This document shows, in pieces, positions 29,321 through 55,585 of a stretch of DNA of 64,000 bases. A program made the position numbers and the translations under genes. Source of the stretch: Patescibacteria group bacterium (GTDB taxonomy: Bacteria > Patescibacteriota > Patescibacteriia > Magasanikbacterales > UBA922); assembly GCA_028687045.1 (NCBI GenBank), contig JAQUAW010000001.1, positions 2,034 through 66,033 of the forward strand. The letters are read 5' to 3'. Numbering within the stretch: position 1 is the first letter of the stretch; the number at the start of each line of letters is the position of its first letter. The notes beneath the pieces were generated by a model, which saw only the letters and a program-made list of their open reading frames with translations, had not been told where the DNA came from and ran no database searches.

Positions 29321-29463
29321 ACTCCACAATTACATCCACCACAACAACTGTCTTCTTTTTCTGTTTCCTCGTCACAAGCGCAAAAACCTTCATTATTGCA
29401 ACAGGTATCTTCTTGCTTTGGCTCTTCTTGTGAATCTTTTTCTTCTTTTGTTTCGTCTGACAT
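29317..29463 (-). CDS. Candidate 48-aa micro-protein: acidic N-terminus and a C-terminus with 8 Cys (…TCCNNEGFCACDEETEKEDSCCGGCNCGV). Not in the ORF track because it is under 60 aa.
   Basis: The ATG lies 13 bp downstream of the stop of 29477..30676 on the same strand, and the frame is open for 147 nt. Confidence 0.35.
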   Translation of the reverse strand: MSDETKEEKDSQEEPKQEDTCCNNEGFCACDEETEKEDSCCGGCNCGV

Positions 29464-29476
29464 ATATTTATTTTAG

Positions 29477-30676
29477 TTATTTAAGTAAATTTGGATACTT
29501 TTGAAAAAACATCTCCAAAACCTGACCATTTAGTCTGTAAACTTGATTTTCCTCGTCTTTCGTTACCCACATAGTATCTAGCAAATTTTGCATTATGCCT
29601 TCATTACTTAATGCAAAAGGCAGTTTTTTTCCCTGCATTATTTTTTTCAAAACATCCCTTTCTTCATCATTAAAAGTTTTTTGAAAAACTTGTCTATAAT
29701 GGTTAAATATGTTGTCAAAGTTTCTCTCTATTCTTTCAATGACATCTTCCATATCACTAGCCGTATAATTTAATTTCTTTACGTCAACAGAACAAAATTC
29801 AGCCAAAAATTCATTGACAAAATAATTTATTTCTCTAGCTTTACCACCGGTAAACTCGTAAATTTTTTCTATGGCATCAGGGGCAAAAGTAAGATAGCTC
29901 CCTTCCAAGTCTTTTTCTACTAATAATCTTGTCTCTTCCAAAGTAAGTGGTCTAATATAAAATTCTTGATAATCCTCACCAAATATTTTTTGTAACATCT
30001 TATTATTTTCTATATCTACAAAATGCAATACCAAAGCTATCTGCAGTTCATCCAAATTACCTAAACTTGCGATATATCTCAAAAATCCCTCATTATCTAT
30101 AACATTGACTACCTCATCAATGGCTATAAAACATTTAATATTATTATCTTTTAGATATTGATTTAAATACTCAAACGGTGTTTGTCCACTTTCTGTAATT
30201 TTTTCTCTTATTTCCTCAATACTAGCTTGTTTACCTTGTTCAATCTCTTTTTGACGAATAAATTTACAAACTTCATACAATCCAAATCGTTTTTTAAAAT
30301 AGTCTAAACTACTATCTGAAAGAATCGGAATAGCGTCAAACTTGATAGAATTATCTGCACCAAAGTCATTGACCAAGGAATTCAACATACTACTTTTGCC
30401 AATCCTTTTGAGACCTCTTATTGCTACATTTTGTCCAGCGAGTAAAGTATCTTGAATTTTCTTTTCTTGATCCAGACGAACAATACTTCTTTCTATACTG
30501 GCTTCACGTGTAATTCTTTCTCTTGTTTTTTCAAGATGAACTTCAAAAATTTCAGGTGATAATCTTGCTCTTACTTCTTCTAAAGTCAGTTCTTTTTCTT
30601 GTTGCTCAGTACTTTCATTCATTGTTAGTTTTTCTTCCTCTGGCACAAAAGGAAGATAATTATCACCTGTACCCAT
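29477..30676 (-). CDS. AAA+/P-loop ATPase of unknown function
   Basis: Walker A IRGLKRIGKSSML and Walker B CFIAIDEV. 399 aa. Confidence 0.55.
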   Translation of the reverse strand: MGTGDNYLPFVPEEEKLTMNESTEQQEKELTLEEVRARLSPEIFEVHLEKTRERITREASIERSIVRLDQEKKIQDTLLAGQNVAIRGLKRIGKSSMLNSLVNDFGADNSIKFDAIPILSDSSLDYFKKRFGLYEVCKFIRQKEIEQGKQASIEEIREKITESGQTPFEYLNQYLKDNNIKCFIAIDEVVNVIDNEGFLRYIASLGNLDELQIALVLHFVDIENNKMLQKIFGEDYQEFYIRPLTLEETRLLVEKDLEGSYLTFAPDAIEKIYEFTGGKAREINYFVNEFLAEFCSVDVKKLNYTASDMEDVIERIERNFDNIFNHYRQVFQKTFNDEERDVLKKIMQGKKLPFALSNEGIMQNLLDTMWVTKDEENQVYRLNGQVLEMFFQKYPNLLK

Positions 30677-30733
30677 AATATAAAAAATATAGTTGATTTA
30701 TGAAACTATAATATCATCTCTATAATACCCAAG

Positions 30734-32518
30734 TCAAGCCATAAAACCACCAACTTGAATATCCCACAAATTACGATAAATACCATTTTTTTTCTTCAAA
30801 AGTACTTTGTGTGAACCTTGTTCAAGAATTCCACCTTGTTCTATCACCAAAATTCTATTTGAATTCATAATAGTCGAAAGTCTGTGTGCGACGATAATGA
30901 CAGTCTTACCTTTCATCAGATTTCCCAAAGCATCTTGGATAAGCTTTTCTGACTTAGAATCTAAACTAGAAGTTGCTTCGTCCAAAATCAAAATTGGGGA
31001 ATTTTTTAGTATTGCTCGAGCTATAGCTACGCGCTGTCTTTCACCGCCCGAAAGCTTGATACCTCTTTCTCCTACCAAAGTATTGTAACCATCTGCCAAA
31101 TTCAAAATAAAATCATGAGCATTGGCTTGCTTGGCAACAGACATCACTTCTTCATCACTAGCATCTGGTTTAGCATAACGAATATTTTCCATGATACTTC
31201 TATGAAAAAGCATCGGGTCTTGTGGCACAAGACTGACATTTTGCCATAAACTTTCTTGCGTACACTTGGCAATGTTTTGTCCATCTATCAGAATTTTTCC
31301 ACCAGAAATATCATGTTGACGTAAAAGCAATTTTACAATAGTAGACTTCCCTGCACCTGAGGAACCAACGAGGGCTATTTTTTCTTGAGGCTTGATTACC
31401 AAATCCATTTTTTTGATTATTTCTCTAGTTTTGTTGTAAGCAAAAGAAACTTCTTTGAATTCTATTTTACCTGTCGTAACTTGTAATTTTTTGGCATTTT
31501 TGACATCTTGTATGTCATAAGGCATATTTAGTATCTCAGTCATTTCTTCGGCGTCAGCCAGTGATTCATAAAAATCTCTAATTACACGACCAAAGCCAAA
31601 AAACTTTTCAAAAATAATAATAAGATAAGATTGAATCAAAATAAAATCACCAACTGTAATACTACCAGCTTGCCAAACTTTGACAGCATAAAACAACATC
31701 ACGATTTCCAACAAAATCATCAACATCCATTGTATACCATCAAACCAAGTGGAAATGTCCCAAGAAAATTTTCTTATTTTCCTTAGATCTTCTGTTTTTT
31801 GTTCAAATTCTTTACACTCTCTACCATAACCAACCAACAACTTTACATTGGTATTATTAGTAAAAGAATCAGCCAAAAAAGCTCCAACCTTGGAATCTAG
31901 CTGACTTCTCTCAAAATCATATTTTAATTTGAATTTACTAAAAAAGTAACTAGTCAAAACAAAGATGAATATCCAAGAAATTATTATTAAAGCAAAAAAC
32001 TTGTTACGACTAAATAAGACAATAGAAATAAGTGTAACATTGATAATGATAGGCAAAAGATCCCAAATTATTCTATCTGAAATTCTATCAAAAGCTTGTA
32101 CAAATCTACCAACTTTTTTTACCAGAGAACCTACGAAGCTGTTGTTGAAAAAAGAAAAAGAATGTTTGTGAACTTTGGAAAAACAAGCATCATTCAAATC
32201 TTTTAGACTGTCTGTGCTAAACTTTATGTACAAAAAAGCCATGACACGGATAAAAAACCACTGCAAAATTTTTATACCCAAAATAATAAATAATGTGGTA
32301 TAGAGAATCTCAACATTAGGATTAGTAGACAAGACATCAAAAAACTTTTTGTACCAATAAGGAGCCAATATTGAAAAAGCATCACCAATCAATAACAACA
32401 AAAACATAGACATAAAGCTCCATTTGTATTTCCAAGCTTGTTGCCAATAAATTTTCAAAGTTATTTTGGTATTATTTTTCATAAGTAATTTATTTTTTTT
32501 GCAATAAAAAAACGTCAA
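30734..32518 (-). CDS. ABC exporter with fused permease and ATPase (MsbA-like half transporter)
   Basis: Six-TM N-terminal half, then GSSGAGKST Walker A, LSGGERQRVAIARAIL signature and ILILDEATS Walker B. Confidence 0.85.
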   Translation of the reverse strand: MTFFYCKKNKLLMKNNTKITLKIYWQQAWKYKWSFMSMFLLLLIGDAFSILAPYWYKKFFDVLSTNPNVEILYTTLFIILGIKILQWFFIRVMAFLYIKFSTDSLKDLNDACFSKVHKHSFSFFNNSFVGSLVKKVGRFVQAFDRISDRIIWDLLPIIINVTLISIVLFSRNKFFALIIISWIFIFVLTSYFFSKFKLKYDFERSQLDSKVGAFLADSFTNNTNVKLLVGYGRECKEFEQKTEDLRKIRKFSWDISTWFDGIQWMLMILLEIVMLFYAVKVWQAGSITVGDFILIQSYLIIIFEKFFGFGRVIRDFYESLADAEEMTEILNMPYDIQDVKNAKKLQVTTGKIEFKEVSFAYNKTREIIKKMDLVIKPQEKIALVGSSGAGKSTIVKLLLRQHDISGGKILIDGQNIAKCTQESLWQNVSLVPQDPMLFHRSIMENIRYAKPDASDEEVMSVAKQANAHDFILNLADGYNTLVGERGIKLSGGERQRVAIARAILKNSPILILDEATSSLDSKSEKLIQDALGNLMKGKTVIIVAHRLSTIMNSNRILVIEQGGILEQGSHKVLLKKKNGIYRNLWDIQVGGFMA

Positions 32519-33236
32519 TAGTATTATACACCTTTTGACGTTTTTTTAAAATAGTTTTTTTAAAAAATAAAAAACAATAATAAAAAATAATTATTGTTTA
32601 TCTTTAAAATCTTATAATTATTATTTACAAAATAAATTATAAAAAATTCAAATTACAATAATTAACAAATCTTTTGTCAAAATCAATCTAAATTTTTGTT
32701 TCAAAAAACCAAAACTTAGATTGATTGAGACGACGTACCTCCTTTGTTAAAGTAATCTCAATCCTCCTTTTGTTCTTCTTTTTTTTCGATGAGCCCTCAC
32801 AATGGGGGCTTTACCGAAGAATGGTGTTGAATGGCTCTGCCAAACACCACCACAAAGCTGAACCGAGCTACAAGAGGATGATCGGAACCCTCCACTTTAA
32901 ACTCGTATATACCAGACGTAACAAAAATAAACAGAAAATTATGATGCACTTCTTCGACTACTCGGCACTGTGGCCGCTTAGCCAAAAAGTGAATCATATA
33001 CATCAAAACGCCTTCATGCGTTTTGATGTGTTGACCACAAAAAGTTGGAAGAAAAGAGATACTACGTAGGTGATAAAGTCTGCAAACAGTCTTGATATCT
33101 CCACTGTTCACAGCACCAACACACCTCCCTAAAAAAGCTGTATTGCGCCGCCACGACTCTGTCGCGGCAGCTAAAAATAGAAACAAAGCCAAGAAAGGCA
33201 CTGTTGCCAAAAGATCCACCTGGACCTCCTAGAAAT

Positions 33237-33458
33237 GCGACTTCACAACGTGAGAACTTCTCACGCCATTCAGTCGCTGGTTTCTATCTAAAAAATAGAC
33301 AAAAATCAGCAACTGAATTTTTTGGCACGCACAAAATCATACTCTCCGACATATCCACTGTCAATTACTATATCCTTGACAGAGTGTAATTTGTCGTTCT
33401 ATTTGTAAAAGTTCTCTATACAAAAAAATACACCTAATTTAATAGATGTATTTTTTTT
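33237..33458. repeat. Copy 1 of a 210-220-bp direct repeat. It contains a GC-rich nested hairpin, a degenerate TTGACA palindrome and a terminal hairpin with a T run.
   Basis: About 90% identical to 33650..33866. Starts GCGACTTCACAACGTGAGAACTTCTCACGCCATTCAGTCGC. Confidence 0.7.
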
Positions 33459-33649
33459 GCCCCTCCTTTCCTCCTTTGTGTATGTGAATGGTTGGGCAAT
33501 TACCTCAAGCGGATCCCCAATAGCGGGAATCTCCACCTGAAGCCCCTGATTTCCGGCGGCTGTTTAGCCAGCCGGAAACCATCAACAACACAATGACGGG
33601 AGACACTCCCGCCAAAAACTCCAAAAAGCTCATGTGAGCCTCCGAAACG

Positions 33650-33866
33650 GCGACTTCGCAACGTGAGTACTTCCCACGCCATTCAGTCGCTAGTTTCTAT
33701 CTAAAAAATAGACAAAAATCAGCAACTGAATTTTTTAGCACGCACAAAATAATACTCTTTGACATATCCACTGTCAATTACTTTACCCTTGACAAATTTC
33801 AATTTGTCGTTCTATTTGTAAAAGTTATTTATATAAAAAAATACACCTATTTTCTAGGTGTATTTT
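33650..33866. repeat. Copy 2 of the same direct repeat. It contains the perfect palindrome CTTGACAAATTTCAATTTGTCG and the terminator TACACCTAttttcTAGGTGTATTTT.
   Basis: Aligns to copy 1 with a 413-bp period. Confidence 0.7.
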
Positions 33867-33885
33867 AATTAATTTATTTTAATTT

Positions 33886-35160
33886 CTAAACAAGATAACG
33901 TAAGAAAATATAGACAGTACACATCACCAAAGCTACAAAAGTCAAAGGTAATGCCATCTTCATATACTCCCAAAAACCAATACCATGACCTTCTTTACTA
34001 GCAATACCACTTACTACAACATTGGCTGAAGCACCAACCAAGGTCGCATTTCCACCAATATCAGCACCAAGAGCCAATGCCCACCAAATTGGTGCCAAAG
34101 GTAGTCCTGCAATAGTTCCTAAATCTTTGACAAGTGGGATCATAGTAGCTACAAATGGAATATTATCAATTACAGCTGAAAATATAGCTGAACCCCACAA
34201 AACACTCAAAGTAGTAGCTGTCATGTTTCCACCAGTAAGATTTAGCAAACCTTCAGCCAACATACGAATAGCGCCAACTTCTTCTAGAGCTACAACCAAG
34301 ATGAAAAGTCCCATGAAGAAAAATATTGTAGTCCATTCTACTTCTTTCAAATGTTCTTCTGGATCATGCATGGTCAAAAGCAACATAAGAGCAGCACCAC
34401 CAAGAGCGATAGTAGCACCTTCTAAATGAGTTACACTATGGGTAAAAAATCCAACCAAAACTATAGCCAAGACAAATAATGCTTTTTTTAACAATTTTAC
34501 GTCAGACAAAGCTTCTCTTGGATTAAATTTTGCGATAGTAGCTTGTGCTTCTGCAGTAGCCACAAGTTGCTTGCGATAAATGAAAACCAAAAGTGCAATA
34601 GTAACAATAGAAACAAGAACAGAAATAGGTCCAAGATTAACCAAAAAATCATTGAAAGTAAGACCACTAGCACTACCAATAAGAATGTTTGGCGGATCTC
34701 CGATAAGAGTAGCTGTACCACCAATATTGGCCAACAAAATAGCACCTATAAGAAATGGCTTAGGGTGAATTTTCAAATTATGAGCAACCACAAAAGTGAC
34801 TGGTATCATAAGAAGTACAGTAGTCACATTGTCGAGCAAAGCAGAAAAAACAGCAACAATAGTTAGTAATAATATATATATTTTTACAGGGTTACCCTTA
34901 CCAACTTTGGTAGCCCAGATAGCCACATATTGAAACATACCACTGTGTTTGGCTATTCCCACAATAATCATCATACCAATCAAAAGGCCTAGAGTATTGA
35001 AGTCAATCCCCTCAATTGCTTTTTCTTGTGTCACAATACCAAGCAAAACCATCAATCCCGCACCAGCCATAGCAATGACAGTACGATGAATTTTTTCAGA
35101 GATGATAATAGCGTAAGTAGTAATAAAGACAACAAGTGTAATCCAAAAAAAGATTCCCAT
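33886..35160 (-). CDS. ArsB/NhaD-superfamily ion transporter permease
   Basis: 424 aa, about 10-12 TM helices, with a duplicated internal-repeat architecture typical of the ArsB/NhaD/CitMHS group. Confidence 0.65.
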   Translation of the reverse strand: MGIFFWITLVVFITTYAIIISEKIHRTVIAMAGAGLMVLLGIVTQEKAIEGIDFNTLGLLIGMMIIVGIAKHSGMFQYVAIWATKVGKGNPVKIYILLLTIVAVFSALLDNVTTVLLMIPVTFVVAHNLKIHPKPFLIGAILLANIGGTATLIGDPPNILIGSASGLTFNDFLVNLGPISVLVSIVTIALLVFIYRKQLVATAEAQATIAKFNPREALSDVKLLKKALFVLAIVLVGFFTHSVTHLEGATIALGGAALMLLLTMHDPEEHLKEVEWTTIFFFMGLFILVVALEEVGAIRMLAEGLLNLTGGNMTATTLSVLWGSAIFSAVIDNIPFVATMIPLVKDLGTIAGLPLAPIWWALALGADIGGNATLVGASANVVVSGIASKEGHGIGFWEYMKMALPLTFVALVMCTVYIFLRYLV

Positions 35161-35187
35161 ATAGTTTATAAATCTTTATTATATTTA

Positions 35188-35658
35188 TTAATGAATTCCG
35201 AGTACACGAGCGATAGCTTTTTTGATATCAGTACGATTGATATAGCCAACCAATTTTTCTTCAGCATCGACTACTGGAATTTGACGAATCTTGAATTCAG
35301 AAAGCATAGTAGCAGCTTCCATCAAAGTATGACTTTCTTTGATAGTGTGAACCTCTTTGGTCATAAATTTGGTAATAGGTTCATCAGCAACTTCTTTGAT
35401 TCTAACACTAAATTCTTCAGCCGCCTCAAAAGAAGCTAAATGTTTGTCTTCTTCCAAATAATCTGGAACTACATATTGAATCAAATCCATACTAGACAAA
35501 ATCCCTTTTACATATTTTTCATCGTCAACGACAACCACTCCATTGGTACGACCGTCAACCATTTTTTGCAATGCTTCTCTAAAAGTAGCATTAATATTTA
35601 CTGTTGTCACAACATCTTGCATGTTGTTTTTGACAAGATATTTTTCTTGTTCTGTCAT
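35188..35658 (-). CDS. Tandem CBS-domain protein
   Basis: 156 aa with two CBS-like motifs (GVVVVDDEKYVKGILS; IPVVDAEEKLVGYINRTD). Sits directly upstream of the permease. Confidence 0.7.
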   Translation of the reverse strand: MTEQEKYLVKNNMQDVVTTVNINATFREALQKMVDGRTNGVVVVDDEKYVKGILSSMDLIQYVVPDYLEEDKHLASFEAAEEFSVRIKEVADEPITKFMTKEVHTIKESHTLMEAATMLSEFKIRQIPVVDAEEKLVGYINRTDIKKAIARVLGIH

Positions 35659-35781
35659 ATATTCTATATATTATATATAAATTAAATTGCTTTTTGCATT
35701 ATTTCTAATTTAGAACATACAACATTATAAGATAATTTTAGTATAATTTCAAGGGTAACAGTGGATAAATATTTAAACAAC

Positions 35782-35819
35782 AAAAAATACCAGATTGTAA
35801 CTGGTATTCTTTATTTTTT
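35782..35819. terminator. Bidirectional rho-independent terminator
   Basis: ACCAGATTGTAACTGGT hairpin with an A run on one side and a T run on the other. Confidence 0.6.
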
Positions 35820-35840
35820 ATTTCTAATAAACAATCATTC

Positions 35841-37436
35841 TTATAAATCGTTTCCTGTATATGACATATTGAAACTTTTATTAATCAAAGGAAAATCTGG
35901 CACAATATTGTTCAAACCAGCCTCACCCAAAGCTGACCAGTTGACAAAGGAAGGATCTCTTGGAAATACTCTACTAATATTGCCTTGTGCGTCTGTAGCT
36001 ACGAAATAAGATATCTCTCCACGCCAACCTTCCACCATACTTACAGCATAAGCACTTTTTTGCAAAATAAGGCTAGTAATATTGGCTACAATAATCTCTC
36101 CCTCAGGTATTTTTTGCAAAGATTCTTGTACTATTTCCAATGATTTACGAATTTCTTTTAAACGAATCTGAAATCTAGCGTTGACATCACCCTCTTCTTC
36201 TACAGGTATTTGCCCCATAGAAACTTCGGCGTAAGCAGCATAAGGGTGATCAACACGTGTATCATGTTTTACACCTACAGCTCTACCAGCGACACCCAGA
36301 GTACCTTGGTTATTAGCTACTTCTAGAGAAATGATGCCTGTACCTTTTAGACGATTCAAAAGTGATGCACTATCTTCAGCGATAGCAATCACTTCTTCAA
36401 AATCTTTAGCAATTTTTATCAGTTCTTTACTTAGATAATCTTGTTCACTTTTGTTTAAATCTTTTTTTACACCACCAATAGTATTTACACTACGCAAAAA
36501 TCTACTTTTTGTTAATTTTTCATTTATTTGCATCATCATTTCACGCAAACGTGATCCATTGGCTCCACCAAAACTGAAACCAGTATCCATCATAATAGCT
36601 CCAATATCACCAAAATGATTAGCTAGTCTTTCAAGTTCAGCAAAAATGGTTCTCAAATACAAAGCACGTTTTGGCACTTCAATTCCAGCTAATTTTTCTA
36701 TAGTTTGACAAAAAGCTAAAGAATGACTAAAAGAACTATCACCAGAAATTTTTTCTGACAAACGTATCTTATTTTCCAAAGACAAAACTTCAAATAATTT
36801 TTCACTACCTTTGTGTACATATCCCAAACGTGGTTCAAGTTGCACAATACTTTCTCCAGCCATACTAAAACGAAAATGACCAGGTTCGATAATACCAGCA
36901 TGAATTGGTCCAACAGGAATTTCATAAATCCCCTCACCTTTTACTTCTTGAAATTCATATTTACCGGTTACTTCTTTCAATTTGGTTTTCCATTCAAAAT
37001 CTTTTCTAAGAGGAAAAACATTACTTGGATAATTTTCATGCAAAATAAGCGGTCTATTGTCTGGAATATCTGTAGCTACTAAACCAAAAAAAGTCTGAAT
37101 TCTTCTTTCGTAGTTTAATATTTCAGGTACAAGGTTAGCCAATGAAGGAAAATCAGTAGTATTTTTCAATTCAATAAAAGGACAGATAAAAAAATTATCA
37201 CCAGGTACAGCAAATAAATACCAAATTTTGAAAGCTCCTTTTTCTTTTCTTTCGTCTGTAGCGGTGACTAGCTTAAGTGAAAGTTTTTTTTGATTATGTA
37301 ACTCTCCTACAATTTCAGCTATTTGTGTAGAAGATACTTCGAAGATAGCCAAGTTATCGTGATACTCTACGTTAGCATTCTTTGGAAGGTATGATTGTAT
37401 TTTTTCTTTTATCATATTAGTATTGCAAAACAGCAT
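35841..37436 (-). CDS. Fused NuoC-like/NuoD-like subunit, homologous to the group-4 [NiFe]-hydrogenase large subunit but lacking the Ni-binding cysteines (Ehr large subunit-like)
   Basis: VGPIHAGIIEPGHFRF and LGYVHKGSEK are NuoD/HycE-like. The L1 position reads KISGDSSFSH where hydrogenases have RxCGxCxxxH. The C-terminus has no CxxC. Confidence 0.7.
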   Translation of the reverse strand: MLFCNTNMIKEKIQSYLPKNANVEYHDNLAIFEVSSTQIAEIVGELHNQKKLSLKLVTATDERKEKGAFKIWYLFAVPGDNFFICPFIELKNTTDFPSLANLVPEILNYERRIQTFFGLVATDIPDNRPLILHENYPSNVFPLRKDFEWKTKLKEVTGKYEFQEVKGEGIYEIPVGPIHAGIIEPGHFRFSMAGESIVQLEPRLGYVHKGSEKLFEVLSLENKIRLSEKISGDSSFSHSLAFCQTIEKLAGIEVPKRALYLRTIFAELERLANHFGDIGAIMMDTGFSFGGANGSRLREMMMQINEKLTKSRFLRSVNTIGGVKKDLNKSEQDYLSKELIKIAKDFEEVIAIAEDSASLLNRLKGTGIISLEVANNQGTLGVAGRAVGVKHDTRVDHPYAAYAEVSMGQIPVEEEGDVNARFQIRLKEIRKSLEIVQESLQKIPEGEIIVANITSLILQKSAYAVSMVEGWRGEISYFVATDAQGNISRVFPRDPSFVNWSALGEAGLNNIVPDFPLINKSFNMSYTGNDL

Positions 37437-38862
37437 TATTAATTAAAGTCTGCAAAAATGGTGGCAAATAGACACTCAAAATAACTATAATAGTAACAAA
37501 TAAAATTTGTGGAATAAACAACCAAATATTATTTTCACCTTTTTCAATATTGTCTGGTTTTTCTCCAAAAAACATAGCTGTAAAATGTTTCAAAAAACTT
37601 ACAAAAACTAAAGCGAGAAAAAACAGAGCAATCAAACTAACGACAGGATACTCTTTCATACCAGCTGACAAAATGTAAAGTTTGGTCATAAACATTCCAA
37701 ATGGTGGCACACCTGTCACAATCAGAAAACCAATAAGGGAAAGTACACCCGTCACAGGCAAGACTTTCAAAGCTCCTTTGACATTGAAAATTTTGGCAGA
37801 ACTATATTTCAATAACAAATTTCCTGTAGATAAAAAGAGTACGACTCTGACACAAGAATGATAAACAATATGAAGTATTGCTGCAAAAATACCTAATCCT
37901 CCAAAACCAAAACCAAGTGCCATTACACCGGCATTTTCAATACTAGAATAAGCAAGCAATCTTTTGTAATTTTTGGCATTGAACATAATCAAAGCTGAGA
38001 CAACAATAGACAATAGACCAAAAACAATCAATAGTGTTTGACTAAACAAAGGTCCAACGGCAATGTCTACAATAACCTTGTATCTAAGCATAATCACAAA
38101 AGCAATTGGCAACAAAGCGCCGGATAACAAAGCGCCTATAGGTGCTGGTGCTTTGCTATAAGCATCTGGTTTCCAAGTGTGCATTGGTACAAAACCAATC
38201 TTAGTACCATAACCAATAAGTACAAAAACAAAAGCAATTTTAGCAAGCAAGGGGTCAAGATGAATAGCATTACTAGTCAATGTTTGCCAGTCCACCAAAC
38301 CAACACTAGACAAATCAATAGAGGTAAAAAATAATAATGTTCCAAAAAATCCCAAAAGTAAACCAACAGAATTGATAATCAAATATTTCCAAGCTCCTTC
38401 AATCGCTGATGGTTTATTGTAAAAACTTATCAAAAAGGCAGTAGACAGTGTGGTAGCTTCAATAGAAATCCAAGCAAAAATAGGATTGCTAGAGGTAATT
38501 GCCAAAAACATCGCTACAAAAAACATATTCAACAAAACAAAATATTGTTTTACACGTGTAAAACCAATAATACTTTTTTGCATTTCTTGACGTAAATATT
38601 GTACAGAATAAATAGTAGTAGCAAAACCAACAAAACCAAGAACCAAGACAATAATAGCACCCAAAGAATCAATTGAAAAAAATCTTCCAGAACCTGGTGT
38701 ATAAATTCCCAATGAAGACACTTTTAGAGCTACTACAATAGACAACACCAAAGAAATTAATGAAGAAACTACTGATACAACTTCAATAACTACTTTTCTT
38801 TTAGAAAGAAGATTTATTATCGCTGCAATAAACAAAGTTATTATTATAAAAAAAATTTCCAT
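37417..38862 (-). CDS. NuoN/NuoM/MrpD-like antiporter-type membrane subunit
   Basis: 481 aa, about 14 TM helices, with family-typical motifs. Confidence 0.7.
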   Translation of the reverse strand: MEIFFIIITLFIAAIINLLSKRKVVIEVVSVVSSLISLVLSIVVALKVSSLGIYTPGSGRFFSIDSLGAIIVLVLGFVGFATTIYSVQYLRQEMQKSIIGFTRVKQYFVLLNMFFVAMFLAITSSNPIFAWISIEATTLSTAFLISFYNKPSAIEGAWKYLIINSVGLLLGFFGTLLFFTSIDLSSVGLVDWQTLTSNAIHLDPLLAKIAFVFVLIGYGTKIGFVPMHTWKPDAYSKAPAPIGALLSGALLPIAFVIMLRYKVIVDIAVGPLFSQTLLIVFGLLSIVVSALIMFNAKNYKRLLAYSSIENAGVMALGFGFGGLGIFAAILHIVYHSCVRVVLFLSTGNLLLKYSSAKIFNVKGALKVLPVTGVLSLIGFLIVTGVPPFGMFMTKLYILSAGMKEYPVVSLIALFFLALVFVSFLKHFTAMFFGEKPDNIEKGENNIWLFIPQILFVTIIVILSVYLPPFLQTLINNAVLQY

Positions 38863-50558: not shown

Positions 50559-50727
50559 ATTTTTTGAAAGAATGTCTAGAATAAAAACGGTGCTATTATA
50601 ACTGTTTTAACCCATTTAGTCAATTATTTAGCAAATTTGTTGTGAATAATAATAACTAGACAAAATTTGGCCAAAAAATAACACGCCATCAGTTTAGCAA
50701 AAACAAATACGATGTCAATCTGATTAC

Positions 50728-50752
50728 CCTTGACAAATTGGAATTTGTTGTT
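50728..50752. promoter_or_regulatory. Operator-like palindrome CCTTGACAAATTggAATTTGTTG. It overlaps a -35-like TTGACA and lies upstream of tatD.
   Basis: Near-identical to the site at 33788..33809. Confidence 0.45.
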
Positions 50753-50842
50753 CTAAAACAAATAAGCGTTATTTACTCTTAAATAACAAAGAATCTCAAA
50801 ATTACCGAGATTCTTTTTTATTTTATAAATTTTTCAATCAAA

Positions 50843-52437: not shown

Positions 52438-52454
52438 TTATTTTTGTGGTTTGT

Positions 52455-52602
52455 GAGGAGAACGGTGGGACTCACGTTTGTCTGTCGACTACGGGTATTG
52501 ACGCGAAGGAGGCACGTCAGCACCGCACGTAGAGCAAACTACCAGTCCATCTAGGGAGCAAACTCCCCAGACTATGGCCGCGAGCACTCCACCGTTCCCC
52601 TC
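52455..52602. ncRNA. Candidate structured ncRNA of about 150 nt, identity unknown. It has a long terminal helix and two internal hairpins. The strand is uncertain.
   Basis: About 60% GC in a roughly 30% GC genome. The 5' GAGGAGAACGGTGGGACTCACG pairs with the 3' CGCGAGCACTCCACCGTTCCCCTC. Internal hairpins are CTACG..TGACG..CGTCA..CGTAG and GGGAGcaaaCTCCC. Confidence 0.45.
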
Positions 52603-52662
52603 AACCACAAACTACGATATTTTAGTTAATTTGTCAATAGTTAGTTATAAAAGCAGTTCAAT

Positions 52663-54979: not shown

Positions 54980-55232
54980 AATCCTTATTTCTTAATTCTT
55001 AGTTCTTATATAATAACAAATCTAGCCAAAAAATCAAACTATTGACAAAAAAACGAATTTAAAGTAGATTGACTAATCAATTTTGACTAAACAAGGTCAA
55101 ATTTTGTCTACCAAAGATGCTGTCAAACTATTTAACATTATCTTTGGCAGACCAAAAGTCTGCAAACAGACCTGAGAAGGAACGAGCTGGAAGTACCAGA
55201 ACGTCTCTTCTCACCTGCACCTTGGGAGAGGT

Positions 55233-55460
55233 GTGGAAATAAGACGAACAAAGGCCGACACCTACATCAGTGTAGGTTCGGCCATCGGCGCTATAGCGGG
55301 CGCCGTCTTCGGCCTCGAGGCCGGAGGAAACATGGGTGCAGGAATCTTCTGCACCGTGGTCGGCTCCGCACTTGGAGTCGTCCTTGGACTGGTCGCTATG
55401 CCAGTCCTAAAACTAACCGCTGCGGCGTTTGTCAGATCTGACAAACGCCGCGATCTCTAA
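55233..55460 (+). CDS. Small Gly-zipper membrane protein encoded in a GC-rich island. Alternate start codon; the gene model is uncertain.
   Basis: GSAIGAIAGAVFGLEAGGNMGAGIFCTVVGSALGVVLGLVAM carries GxxxG repeats. Local GC is near 58%. It is followed by two hairpin terminators. Confidence 0.4.
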   Translation: MEIRRTKADTYISVGSAIGAIAGAVFGLEAGGNMGAGIFCTVVGSALGVVLGLVAMPVLKLTAAAFVRSDKRRDL

Positions 55461-55510
55461 CAGCCGTGGGCAGAAGCTAAAAACTTCTTTGCCCACGGCC
55501 ATCCAATCTT
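55413..55510 (+). terminator. Tandem hairpins ending in T8 downstream of the Gly-zipper ORF
   Basis: GCGGCGTTTGTCAGATCTGACAAACGCCGC is a perfect palindrome. It is followed by CCGTGGGCA…TGCCCACGG and then ATCTTGccaaaaCAAGATTTTTTTT. Confidence 0.6.
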
Positions 55511-55585
55511 GCCAAAACAAGATTTTTTTTATTTTTTATGCTATAATATGAAAACTAAATAGAAATTAATGTCTAAAATAAAAAT

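What the first reader, a model, noticed from the sequence alone, without database searches (positions are those of the whole stretch)
33237..33866. Two 413-bp-period direct repeats, each carrying a GC hairpin, a TTGACA-centred palindrome and a terminator: candidate duplicated small-RNA or regulatory cassettes
Seen: copy 1 (33237..33458) and copy 2 (33650..33866) are about 90% identical. Each starts with the nested hairpin GCGACT…CGTGAGAA…TTCTCACG…AGTCGC. Each contains a TTGACA box embedded in a palindrome (perfect in copy 2: GACAAATTtcAATTTGTC). Each ends in a hairpin followed by a T run (TACACCTA…TAGGTGTA TTTT). The GC-rich spacer between the copies has another long hairpin, TTTCCGGCTGGCT/AGCCGCCGGAAA.
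Inference: these are tandem promoter-operator-terminator units, possibly short sRNA genes or a duplicated regulatory region feeding the CBS-permease operon at 33886..35658.
Basis: seen in the sequence. Interest (0 to 1): 0.6.

Follow-up and report, generated by a model that had tools for sequence, protein, structure and literature searches.

The report
Duplicated promoter–leader heading two small genes
The repeat is real, but it is two copies of a terminator–promoter–5'UTR module on the opposite strand, each heading a small gene (a 42-residue membrane peptide and a membrane-anchored iota-carbonic-anhydrase-like protein) in a strain-variable spot of a candidate-phyla-radiation bacterium; it is a regulatory duplication, not a pair of small-RNA genes.

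Summary
Copies at 33237-33458 and 33650-33866 are about 90% identical and 413 nt apart. The same arrangement is in three assemblies of two Candidatus Magasanikiibacteriota strains, so it is not an artefact.

Every flanking gene is on the minus strand. The only near-consensus promoters (TTGACA-17-TATTAT and TTGACA-17-TATGAT) are on the minus strand inside each copy. Every hairpin is more stable as minus-strand RNA. The CBS/permease operon lies upstream, so the repeat cannot feed it.

Read on the minus strand, each copy is an intrinsic terminator, a promoter, and a roughly 110-nt structured leader that occludes the Shine-Dalgarno sequence. Copy 2 heads an orphan 42-residue transmembrane ORF. Copy 1 heads a 140-residue protein: a transmembrane helix plus an NTF2/CaMKII-AD domain with the iota-carbonic-anhydrase residues (Thr, Tyr, His, Ser; motif QHHSS).

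More distant relatives have an empty site. Others carry a single cassette with the same promoter and 3' module but a cargo only 31-48% identical, sometimes at another position. The promoter module also precedes the atp operon.

This is a new member of an ordinary kind, of modest interest.

The parts
33831..33866 (-). T0: intrinsic terminator of the CBS/CitMHS operon (stop codon at 33886). It is the first element of repeat copy 2.
   Evidence: 12-bp stem, 5-nt loop and U7 on the minus strand. Energy -13.3 kcal/mol. Conserved in relatives that lack the cassette (L011).
33650..33866 (-). Repeat copy 2: terminator T0, promoter and 5' leader of unit 2.
33749..33814 (-). Promoter of unit 2: TAGAAC (33814-33809), dyad GACAAATTGAAATTTGTC (33808-33791), TTGTCAAGGGTAA, -35 TTGACA (33777-33772), 17-nt spacer, -10 TATTAT (33754-33749).
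   Evidence: 11/12 match to the sigma-70 consensus. The block TAGAAC-N13-YTGTCAARG occurs 3 times in the window versus 0.02 expected. Homologous promoters are in L014, L006 and the atp operon.
33634..33745 (-). 5' leader of unit 2: H1 (33731-33681), H2 (33680-33660), and the SD-occluding hairpin (33647-33619) with GGAGG at 33643-33639.
   Evidence: Minus-strand energies: H1 -25.0, H2 -8.4, SD hairpin -9.2 kcal/mol. Plus-strand energies: -12.9, -3.4, -4.8. Leader z = -6.1. SD unpaired probability <=0.09.
33505..33633 (-). pep42: 42-residue ORF MSFLEFLAGVSPVIVLLMVSGWLNSRRKSGASGGDSRYWGSA, with one predicted TM helix and a basic tail. It is an orphan.
   Evidence: ATG lies 5 nt after GGAGG. Called as a gene by JGI. 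Only itself found among 5.8e9 proteins. No Pfam, NCBIfam or PADLOC hit.
33422..33497 (-). 3' module of unit 2: a hairpin displaying ACAAAGGAGG (33479-33470) in its loop, followed by terminator T1 (33457-33422). T1 is the first element of repeat copy 1.
   Evidence: T1 is -13.7 kcal/mol on the minus strand versus -8.7 on the plus strand.
33237..33458 (-). Repeat copy 1: terminator T1, promoter and 5' leader of unit 1.
33336..33401 (-). Promoter of unit 1: TAGAAC (33401-33396), degenerate dyad (33395-33378), -35 TTGACA (33364-33359), 17-nt spacer, -10 TATGAT (33341-33336).
33220..33332 (-). 5' leader of unit 1: H1 (33318-33268), H2 (33267-33247), and the SD-occluding hairpin (33232-33207) with GGAGG at 33229-33225.
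   Evidence: Minus-strand energies -26.8, -10.4 and -12.1 kcal/mol; plus-strand energies -18.4, -8.8 and -2.7. SD unpaired probability <=0.16.
32797..33219 (-). orf140: a 140-residue protein with an N-terminal TM helix (residues 3-27) and an NTF2/CaMKII-AD domain with iota-carbonic-anhydrase hallmarks (T59, Y74, H133, S135; motif QHHSS).
   Evidence: phmmer finds 106 relatives, whose Pfam domains are CaMKII_AD, SnoaL_3 and DUF4440. The family profile matches PDB 3H51 at E=1.9e-39 and iota-CA 7C5X at 1.4e-15. AF2 pLDDT is 94.4 and the best fold match is 3H51 at TM 0.73. GC1>GC2 periodicity.
32676..32772 (-). 3' module of unit 1: a hairpin displaying ACAAAGGAGG (32747-32738) in its loop (32763-32723), plus a long AU-rich terminator-like hairpin (32731-32676).
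   Evidence: Conserved in L009, L014 and L019, with 3 pairs changed on both sides. Energies.
50711..50755 (-). Third copy of the promoter module only, upstream of the atp operon (atpZ/I-like 50558-50298, atpB, atpE).
   Evidence: ATTTGTCAAGGGTAA-N4-ATTGACA matches at all 22 specified bases, with 0 expected. Alignment. PF09527 hit for the 86-residue ORF.

Best explanation
The two repeats are duplicated copies of one regulatory module, read on the minus strand. The module consists of three parts:
1. An intrinsic terminator that closes the preceding transcription unit.
2. A sigma-70-type promoter with conserved upstream blocks: TAGAAC-N13-TTGTCAAGG-N8-TTGACA-17-TATNAT.
3. A roughly 110-nt 5' UTR that folds into two hairpins (H1, H2) plus a third hairpin. 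The third hairpin pairs the Shine-Dalgarno GGAGG with a U-rich stretch in codons 2-4.

The result is two tandem, separately terminated, monocistronic units:
- Unit 2: copy 2, then the 42-residue TM peptide, then T1.
- Unit 1: copy 1, then a membrane-anchored iota-carbonic-anhydrase-like protein, then the 3' hairpins.

Both units should therefore be transcribed from the same promoter type, and that type is shared with the atp operon. Both are probably held at low or conditional translation by SD occlusion, with the 5' hairpins stabilising the mRNA.

The units are GC-rich gene cassettes sitting in a strain-variable site downstream of a group-4 hydrogenase / CBS / anion-transporter cluster.

Shown: the repeat, the strand, the promoter matches, the ORFs, the identity of orf140, the comparative distribution and the predicted structures. 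Inferred: that the promoters fire, that pep42 is translated, and that SD occlusion regulates translation.
For: Strand and promoters:
- All neighbouring genes are on the minus strand.
- The only 11/12 promoter matches in 32400-34000 are the two minus-strand sites inside the copies.
- Every hairpin is more stable as minus-strand RNA, because it uses G.U pairs that become A.C mismatches on the plus strand.
- H2 shows A-U in copy 1, G.U in copy 2 and G-C in L014 at one pair.

Unit anatomy:
- SD-5 nt-start geometry is identical in both units, and the SD is paired in both.

Cargo:
- orf140 is a real protein.

Comparative evidence:
- The promoter is conserved at 71-88% nt identity in L014 and L006, which carry single cassettes. 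The atp promoter shares the blocks.
- The CitMHS-ABC site is empty in the 88%, 82% and 77% relatives.
- Both units end with the same kind of 3' module. ACAAAGGAGG occurs only twice in 64 kb, once in each unit.
Against: - There are no transcript data, so promoter and terminator activity are consensus predictions.
- pep42 has no homologue anywhere, and no substitutions between strains to test coding. It could be a relic.
- The leader H1/H2 sequence exists only in this lineage, so its structure lacks real covariation support.
- The cargos downstream of the two copies are unrelated, so a simple tandem duplication does not explain the arrangement.
- Between strains, the whole tract 32400-34400 is only 0.45% diverged against about 5% in the flanks. 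That looks like recent recombination rather than selection on the module.
Confidence: 0.75

Rival explanations
1. One reading: + strand promoter-operator-terminator units that encode short sRNAs or feed the CBS/permease operon.
For: A TTGACA hexamer lies on the + strand inside the dyad. The T0 hairpin scores as a terminator on both strands.
Against: - No + strand promoter reaches 9/12 inside either copy. The best -10 after the + strand TTGACA is TATTTG, 3/6 and lacking the final T.
- A + strand transcript would be about 45 nt, made of the terminator hairpin only.
- The operon is on the minus strand and upstream.
- The hairpins are weaker on the + strand.
- No Rfam family matches.
Confidence: 0.03
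2. Tandem type I toxin-antitoxin loci of the Fst/Ldr kind: pep42, and the TM start of orf140, act as membrane toxins whose highly structured mRNAs are controlled by an antisense RNA.
For: - pep42 is 42 residues, with one TM helix followed by W and a basic tail.
- Its SD is occluded and its mRNA is unusually structured (z -4.7 to -6).
- The arrangement is tandem.
- On the + strand, the complement of H1 is followed by T6 and could terminate an antisense RNA.
- A second small TM ORF sits in a hairpin-dense GC-rich transcript at 55126-55526.
Against: - No + strand promoter lies upstream of the putative antisense terminator in either unit.
- H1 is much weaker on the + strand (-12.9 versus -25.0).
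- Copy 1 heads an enzyme-like 140-residue protein, not a toxin.
- The single-copy cassettes in L014, L006 and L019 carry no small TM ORF.
- There are no Pfam or Rfam toxin or antitoxin matches.
Confidence: 0.08
3. Unit 2 is a decayed cassette. It once carried a full TM-anchored cargo gene, and an internal deletion left the TM-coding start (now pep42) and the 3' module. Copy 2 would then be a leftover promoter with no selected function.
For: - Cassette decay by deletion is seen at this very locus in L009/L010. There the promoter, leader and 5' part of an orf140-type gene are deleted.
- Unit 2 retains the cassette's ends (promoter-leader and the ACAAAGGAGG hairpin plus terminator) around only 190 nt.
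- pep42 is an orphan.
Against: - No remnant of the NTF2 domain is detectable in any frame, and there is no DNA similarity to unit 1's cargo.
- The ORF is intact, with perfect SD spacing, and is identical in two strains.
- The promoter hexamers of copy 2 are the better of the two.
Confidence: 0.3
4. The shared leader is a sensing riboregulator (for a ligand, pH or temperature) that co-regulates the carbonic-anhydrase-like gene and the peptide. An example would be a fourU-like thermometer, because the SD is held by G.U/A-U pairs with a U-tract.
For: - The leader is the best-conserved part of the repeat (about 95%).
- An alternative nested hairpin competes with H1.
- The SD helix is weak and G.U-rich (-9 to -12 kcal/mol).
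Against: - Orthologous cassettes in L014, L006 and L019 have leaders of unrelated sequence, each with just one generic hairpin. There is therefore no conserved aptamer-like core.
- No Rfam match.
- The nested alternative is 6-8 kcal/mol worse than the MFE fold.
Confidence: 0.1
5. Assembly artefact (collapsed or mis-joined repeat).
For: None beyond the general risk in MAGs.
Against: The arrangement is identical in three independent assemblies and two strains. The copies are 9% diverged and have unique cargo between them.
Confidence: 0.01

Closest known systems
Ordinary bacterial expression unit with a translation-occluding 5' UTR (sigma-70 promoter, 5' stabiliser hairpins, SD sequestered in a hairpin, rho-independent terminator); the closest named relatives are fourU-type RNA thermometers
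   Same: Near-consensus -35/-10 hexamers with a 17-nt spacer. 5'-proximal hairpins. An SD paired with a U-tract through A-U and G.U pairs. A hairpin plus U-run terminator.
   Different: The U-tract lies inside the coding region (codons 2-4) rather than upstream. The whole module is duplicated in tandem in front of unrelated cargos. The promoter has extra conserved upstream blocks (TAGAAC, TTGTCAAGG) that it shares with the atp operon. No temperature response has been shown.
Type I toxin-antitoxin loci (Fst/RNAI-RNAII, Ldr/Rdl), which are often tandemly repeated
   Same: A small hydrophobic ORF with a W and basic C-terminal side. A highly structured mRNA with an occluded SD. Tandem copies of the regulatory region.
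   Different: No antisense promoter or antitoxin RNA could be found. One of the two copies drives an enzyme-like gene. There is no sequence-family membership.
iota-class carbonic anhydrases (COG4875/COG4337; LCIP63, BteCA-iota, PDB 7C5V/7C5X, homologue 3H51). This applies to the cargo of copy 1.
   Same: A single CaMKII-AD/NTF2-like domain, the HHSS motif, and the Thr/Tyr/His/Ser active-site residues with the same Thr-to-Tyr spacing (15 residues, orf140 T59/Y74 versus T. pseudonana T62/Y77) as in the T. pseudonana enzyme (PMC8395977, PMC8425729).
   Different: It has an N-terminal TM anchor. It carries QHHSS instead of HHHSS. It is only 25-40% identical to any relative. It is GC-rich in a 32% GC CPR genome. 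Its activity is untested.
Gene cassettes with conserved ends (integron cassettes; strain-variable 'replacement' loci)
   Same: A short cargo between conserved 5' and 3' non-coding modules. The site is variably occupied, the position is variable among relatives, and two cassettes sit in tandem here.
   Different: Each cassette brings its own promoter and terminator. No attC-like site or integrase was seen. There are only two copies in the genome.

Membership tests
   No + strand site reaches 9/12 inside either copy. After the + strand TTGACA the best -10 is TATTTG.
   All hairpins are weaker on the + strand. Rfam gave 0 matches at gathering score and only chance-level hits at E<=1.
Type I toxin-antitoxin system (Fst/Ldr-like) | Small (<=60 residues) hydrophobic single-TM ORF | tested here: met
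   pep42 at 33633-33505.
Type I toxin-antitoxin system (Fst/Ldr-like) | Antisense or overlapping sRNA gene with its own promoter | tested here: not met
   No + strand promoter-like site at 33455-33660 or 33100-33240. The candidate antisense terminator (complement of H1) is weak.
Type I toxin-antitoxin system (Fst/Ldr-like) | Sequence membership in a toxin (Pfam) or antitoxin RNA (Rfam) family | tested here: not met
Type I toxin-antitoxin system (Fst/Ldr-like) | Toxicity of the peptide and its neutralisation by the RNA | not testable with these tools
   Needs expression experiments.
iota-carbonic anhydrase (cargo orf140) | CaMKII-AD / NTF2-like cone-shaped alpha+beta fold | tested here: met
   AF2 pLDDT 94.4. 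Best PDB match is 3H51 at TM 0.73 and rmsd 2.1 A. The profile matches 3H51 at E=1.9e-39 and 7C5X at 1.4e-15.
iota-carbonic anhydrase (cargo orf140) | HH(H)SS consensus near the C-terminus | tested here: met
   orf140 has QHHSS at 131-135. H132, H133, S134 and S135 fall in nearly invariant columns. The motif is as described in PMC8425729 and PMC8395977.
iota-carbonic anhydrase (cargo orf140) | Active-site Thr, Tyr, His and Ser | tested here: met
   T59 (in FLPT), Y74 (15 residues later, matching T62/Y77 of the T. pseudonana enzyme), H133 and S135. The assignment is by alignment only.
iota-carbonic anhydrase (cargo orf140) | CO2 hydration activity | not testable with these tools
   Needs an enzyme assay. 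NCBIfam names relatives only generically (TIGR02246 SgcJ/EcaC).
Riboswitch / conserved cis-regulatory leader | Conserved sequence-structure core across orthologous leaders, or a match to a described family | tested here: not met
   The leaders of L014, L006 and L019 share only the first ~10 nt with the window's leader. The H1/H2 sequence is found in no other genome or metagenome record. No Rfam match.
fourU-type RNA thermometer | SD paired with a run of U through A-U and G.U pairs | tested here: met
   Predicted hairpins at 33647-33619 and 33232-33207.
fourU-type RNA thermometer | Temperature-dependent melting and translation | not testable with these tools
   Needs probing or reporter assays. 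In addition, the U-tract lies in the ORF rather than in the 5' UTR.
MITE / REP-type dispersed repeat | Many dispersed copies per genome | tested here: not met
   The 25-nt and 21-nt leader patterns occur only twice, at this locus, in the 474-kb contig, and nowhere else in 185,579 genomes or the JGI metagenomes.
Integron gene cassette | attC recombination site, a nearby IntI integrase, and promoterless cassettes | not tested
   No attC model was run. Each cassette has its own promoter, and no integrase-like ORF was noticed in the ORF survey.

The most novel reading that the evidence does not exclude
The conserved 5' module (terminator-promoter) and the conserved 3' module (ACAAAGGAGG-loop hairpin plus AU-rich terminator) could form an 'expression socket'. 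Through it, Magasanikibacteria would exchange or rapidly diversify GC-rich cargo genes.

Supporting pattern: the cargos are iota-carbonic-anhydrase variants only 31-48% identical, plus here a 42-residue TM peptide. The non-coding ends stay 70-90% identical. The cassette moves between positions around the hydrogenase cluster.

On this reading, the tandem repeat in this window would be two such cassettes caught side by side. That would make it a cassette-exchange system not described for CPR bacteria.
Probability: 0.15. Interest if true: 0.6.

Novelty: new member of a known kind. Interest (0 to 1): 0.3.

Why it matters
Practical value:
- It corrects the strand and the target of the element.
- It shows that two small, easily missed genes are separately promoted.
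- It identifies one of them as a probable membrane-anchored iota-class carbonic anhydrase. That gene sits next to a group-4 hydrogenase, a CBS protein and an anion transporter in a CPR bacterium, which is a plausible CO2/bicarbonate/pH-handling neighbourhood.

Wider points:
- It documents a promoter architecture (TAGAAC-N13-TTGTCAAGG-N8-TTGACA) shared with the atp operon. Almost nothing is known experimentally about transcription signals in this group.
- It documents a strain-variable cassette site where the non-coding ends are conserved better than the coding cargo.

None of this overturns current understanding.

Tried and rejected
Searches that found nothing useful:
- Rfam, E<=1 on 30000-38000 and gathering score on the whole window: only chance hits (mir-4766, SNORA69).
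- tRNA/tmRNA scan: none.
- Leader pattern in viral contigs: none. In 185,579 genomes and in the JGI metagenomes: only this locus.
- BLAST of the 1.2-kb element against phages and plasmids: only 30-40-nt chance matches.
- pep42 against Pfam, NCBIfam, PADLOC and 5.8e9 proteins: nothing but itself.

Ideas tested and dropped:
- 'The GC-rich cargo of unit 1 is a large structured ncRNA.' I rejected this once orf140 proved to be a real protein.
- 'Unit 2's cargo is a decayed copy of unit 1's cargo.' There is no DNA or HMM similarity.
- 'A DGR hypermutates the cargo.' No RT-like ORF is in the window; this was a crude YxDD motif scan only.
- 'The palindrome is the operator.' It is not conserved in the sister strain's atp promoter or in L006.

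Technical failures:
- The exact-sequence look-up of the CitMHS protein failed.
Full report
OBSERVATION

The repeat is real. The repeat finder gives 33237-33440 and 33650-33853 as a 204-nt ungapped pair, 91% identical and 413 nt apart. BLAST extends the pair to 218 nt at 90.4-90.8% identity. The 41-nt GCGACT...AGTCGC motif occurs only twice in 64 kb, against 0 expected. The dyad is perfect only in copy 2, at 33791-33808.

The source is a Candidatus Magasanikiibacteriota (CPR) genome. The window is not identical to the public contig JBAYVA010000001.1 / Ga0172380_10000008. It is a sister strain, about 95% identical in the flanking genes. The same two-copy arrangement is in the window, in that contig, and in an independent ENA assembly (L005). 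Mis-assembly is therefore excluded.

WHICH STRAND

Every gene around the repeat is on the minus strand:
- CBS protein, 35658-35188.
- CitMHS/ArsB-type transporter, 35160-33886.
- ABC transporter, 32518-30734.

The repeat therefore lies 3' of the CBS/permease operon and cannot feed it.

In 32400-34000 the only 11/12 matches to the sigma-70 consensus are two minus-strand sites, one in each copy. These are TTGACA-17-TATTAT (33777-33749) and TTGACA-17-TATGAT (33364-33336).

Every hairpin is more stable as minus-strand RNA, because G.U pairs on the minus strand become A.C mismatches on the plus strand:

| Hairpin | Minus strand (kcal/mol) | Plus strand (kcal/mol) |
|---|---|---|
| H1 (copy 2 / copy 1) | -25.0 / -26.8 | -12.9 / -18.4 |
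| SD hairpin (copy 2 / copy 1) | -9.2 / -12.1 | -4.8 / -2.7 |
| T1 | -13.7 | -8.7 |

ANATOMY ON THE MINUS STRAND

Each copy contains, in order:
1. An intrinsic terminator. T0 (33866-33831) ends the CitMHS operon. T1 (33457-33422) ends unit 2.
2. A promoter.
3. A roughly 110-nt leader made of H1 (51 nt), H2 (21 nt) and a hairpin that pairs GGAGG with a U-tract in codons 2-4. The predicted SD unpaired probability is <=0.16 in both copies.

Identity falls sharply after GAAGTCGC. The SD, its 5-nt spacing to the start codon and a (C)TTTTGG tract persist beyond that point.

Downstream of copy 2 is a 42-codon ORF (33633-33505), followed by a hairpin whose loop displays ACAAAGGAGG, and then T1. Downstream of copy 1 is a 140-codon ORF (33219-32797), followed by another ACAAAGGAGG-loop hairpin and a long AU-rich hairpin. 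ACAAAGGAGG occurs only at these two places in the window, against 0.06 expected.

The transcripts are unusually structured. The z-score is -9.5 for unit 2 and -10.7 for unit 1. The leaders score -5.7 and -6.1, the orf140 CDS -5.1 and the pep42 CDS -4.7. Five control gene segments score between +1.2 and -3.0.

CARGO

I first suspected that the GC-rich segments (44-53% GC against 32% for the window) were structured non-coding RNAs. That is wrong for unit 1.

orf140 shows coding periodicity, with GC1 0.53 above GC2 0.39. It has 106 relatives at E<=1e-3 among 1.84e9 representative proteins. Those relatives carry CaMKII_AD, SnoaL_3 and DUF4440 domains and share these motifs: GD..LY..FLPT..YF..FL.K.P...G.Y.F..ARF.F..HHSS.P.

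Further evidence on orf140:
- A profile of the family matches PDB 3H51 over its full length (E=1.9e-39). It also matches the three domains of the Bigelowiella iota-carbonic anhydrase 7C5X (E=1.4e-15).
- The AF2 model (pLDDT 94.4) has an N-terminal helix at residues 3-27 and an NTF2 fold. Its best structural match is 3H51, at TM 0.73.
- The literature defines iota-CAs by the CaMKII-AD-like domain, the HH(H)SS motif and an active site of Thr, Tyr, His and Ser. It lists 3H51 as a bacterial homologue (PMC8395977, PMC8425729).
- orf140 has T59, Y74, H133 and S135 in the corresponding, nearly invariant columns. T59 and Y74 are 15 residues apart, as T62 and Y77 are in the diatom enzyme.

orf140 is therefore a probable membrane-anchored iota-CA. 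Its activity is untested.

pep42 (MSFLEFLAGVSPVIVLLMVSGWLNSRRKSGASGGDSRYWGSA) is an orphan. Among 5.8e9 proteins it finds only itself. It has no family hits. Unit 2's cargo contains no NTF2 remnant and has no DNA similarity to unit 1's cargo.

RELATIVES

CitMHS orthologues gave a graded series of loci:

| CitMHS identity to window | Loci | CitMHS-ABC site |
|---|---|---|
| 99-100% | window, L004, L005 | The two units |
| 95-96% | L006-L008, L013 | One cassette with a homologous promoter, a different leader and a GC-rich iota-CA-like gene 34% identical to orf140, plus a 456-residue gene |
| 90% | L009, L010 | An orf140-type gene whose promoter, leader and 5' part are deleted, plus the conserved 3' module |
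| 88% | L011, L012 | Empty |
| 82% | L014 | Empty |
| 77% | L015 | Empty |

L014, the 82% relative with the empty site, carries a cassette elsewhere, between the hydrogenase large-subunit gene and CBS. Its promoter is 86-88% identical to the window's copies. Its leader is shorter and has a GGGAAGUCUCCC hairpin. Its iota-CA-like cargo has GC3 0.71. Its 3' module is the same.

A further genome (L019) has hydrogenase, then an iota-CA-like gene, then UvrD.

Across these loci the cargos are 31-48% identical at the protein level. The non-coding promoter modules are 66-89% identical at the nucleotide level. The 3' module folds consistently, with three pairs changed on both sides, but this rests on only four sequences.

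A third copy of the promoter module alone precedes the atp operon. All 22 specified bases match, against 0 expected, and TAGAAC-N13-YTGTCAARG occurs 3 times against 0.02 expected. The sister strain's atp promoter keeps TAGAAC, TTGTCAAGGGTA and TTGACA but not the ACAAATT/AATTTGT dyad. The conserved blocks, rather than the palindrome, are therefore the likely functional upstream elements.

MECHANISM

The best reading is two tandem monocistronic units sharing a duplicated terminator-promoter-leader module. Both are transcribed from an atp-like promoter. Translation is limited by SD occlusion, and the 5' hairpins and 3' hairpins probably add mRNA stability. The promoter, terminator and occlusion steps are predictions. 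The ORFs, the protein identity, the strand asymmetry and the distribution among relatives are shown.

Because the two cargos are unrelated, the arrangement is better explained by two cassettes with like ends, or by recombination at those ends, than by a simple in-place duplication. Between the two strains, the tract 32400-34400 has 9 substitutions in 2 kb against about 5% in the flanks. That points to recent recombination. Of the five substitutions inside orf140, one is synonymous and the other four give A11V, L16V and C33W; the A11V and L16V changes lie in the TM segment.

RIVALS

- The + strand sRNA/operator model fails on promoter, strand and target.
- The type I toxin-antitoxin reading fits pep42's size, hydrophobicity and occluded SD. 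However, there is no antisense promoter, and the second copy drives an enzyme-like gene. Single-copy cassettes elsewhere also lack such an ORF, and there is no family membership.
- A decayed-cassette origin for unit 2 is plausible, because L009 shows decay at this locus. It is unproven.
- A sensing riboregulator is unlikely, because orthologous leaders share no core.

VERDICT

It is a new member of an ordinary kind.

The more interesting residue is the cassette pattern, with conserved ends, hypervariable GC-rich iota-CA cargo and a variable position, together with the atp-like promoter class. I rate the cassette-exchange reading as possible but unproven.

Noticed in passing
window 52440-52618 (minus strand): A 58% GC, ~179-nt intergenic island in a 32% GC genome. 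As minus-strand RNA it folds into a rod with a ~23-bp closing stem (E -90.6 kcal/mol, z -8.0, against z -3.9 on the plus strand). It matches no Rfam family even at E<=10. It is a candidate unclassified structured RNA, possibly 6S-like or SRP-like.
   Followed up: partly
window 55035-55526 (plus strand): A second GC-rich (63%) hairpin-dense transcript (z -11.1) behind a TTGACA-17-TAGATT promoter. It encodes a glycine-zipper membrane ORF: 75 residues from the GTG at 55233, or 41 residues from an internal SD-ATG. Pfam hits are only sub-threshold glycine-zipper matches. It has the same 'small membrane ORF in a very structured GC-rich mRNA' character as the cassettes.
   Followed up: partly
window 32723-32763 and 33459-33497; L009:5670-5710, L014:1733-1775, L019:3382-3425: Each cassette's 3' UTR has a hairpin whose loop displays a perfect extended Shine-Dalgarno-like sequence (ACAAAGGAGG), with no start codon after it. 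The motif occurs only at these two places in 64 kb. It is conserved in three other genomes with compensatory stem changes. Its function is unknown.
   Followed up: partly
window 50711-50755; L022:920-990; L023:118-190: The atp operon promoter shares the cassette promoter architecture (TAGAAC-N13-TTGTCAAGGGTA-N5-ATTGACA). This may define a promoter class or regulon in these CPR bacteria.
   Followed up: partly
window 29383-30732: A strain-specific ~1.35-kb insertion carrying a 399-residue ATPase_2/AAA-type ORF (30676-29477, minus strand), with no PADLOC hit. The sister strain lacks it and has ~140 nt and a 50-residue ORF there instead.
   Followed up: partly
window 32400-34400: A low-divergence tract between the two strains: 9 substitutions in 2 kb, against about 5% on both sides. 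It spans the cassettes, the 3' 500 nt of the CitMHS gene and the ABC promoter region. It looks like a recent recombination tract. Five of the nine changes cluster at 33121-33188.
   Followed up: partly
L014:1347-1721, L006:5499-5843, L019:3001-3357, window 32797-33219: iota-carbonic-anhydrase-like genes always sit next to the group-4 hydrogenase / CBS / anion-transporter cluster in these Magasanikibacteria. Their GC3 is 0.40-0.71 in 31-35% GC genomes, and they are only 31-48% identical to one another. This suggests repeated replacement or very fast divergence.
   Followed up: partly
L019:3495-3629: A 44-residue Cys-rich ORF (MSKKIETTIEELENKDTCCNEDGCACEEKKESEGDCCGGCNCGV) lies directly after the iota-CA-like cassette in another Magasanikibacteria genome. 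It has no family match.
   Followed up: no
window 1-64000: The whole 64-kb window has no tRNA, no tmRNA and no Rfam family at gathering score.
   Followed up: no
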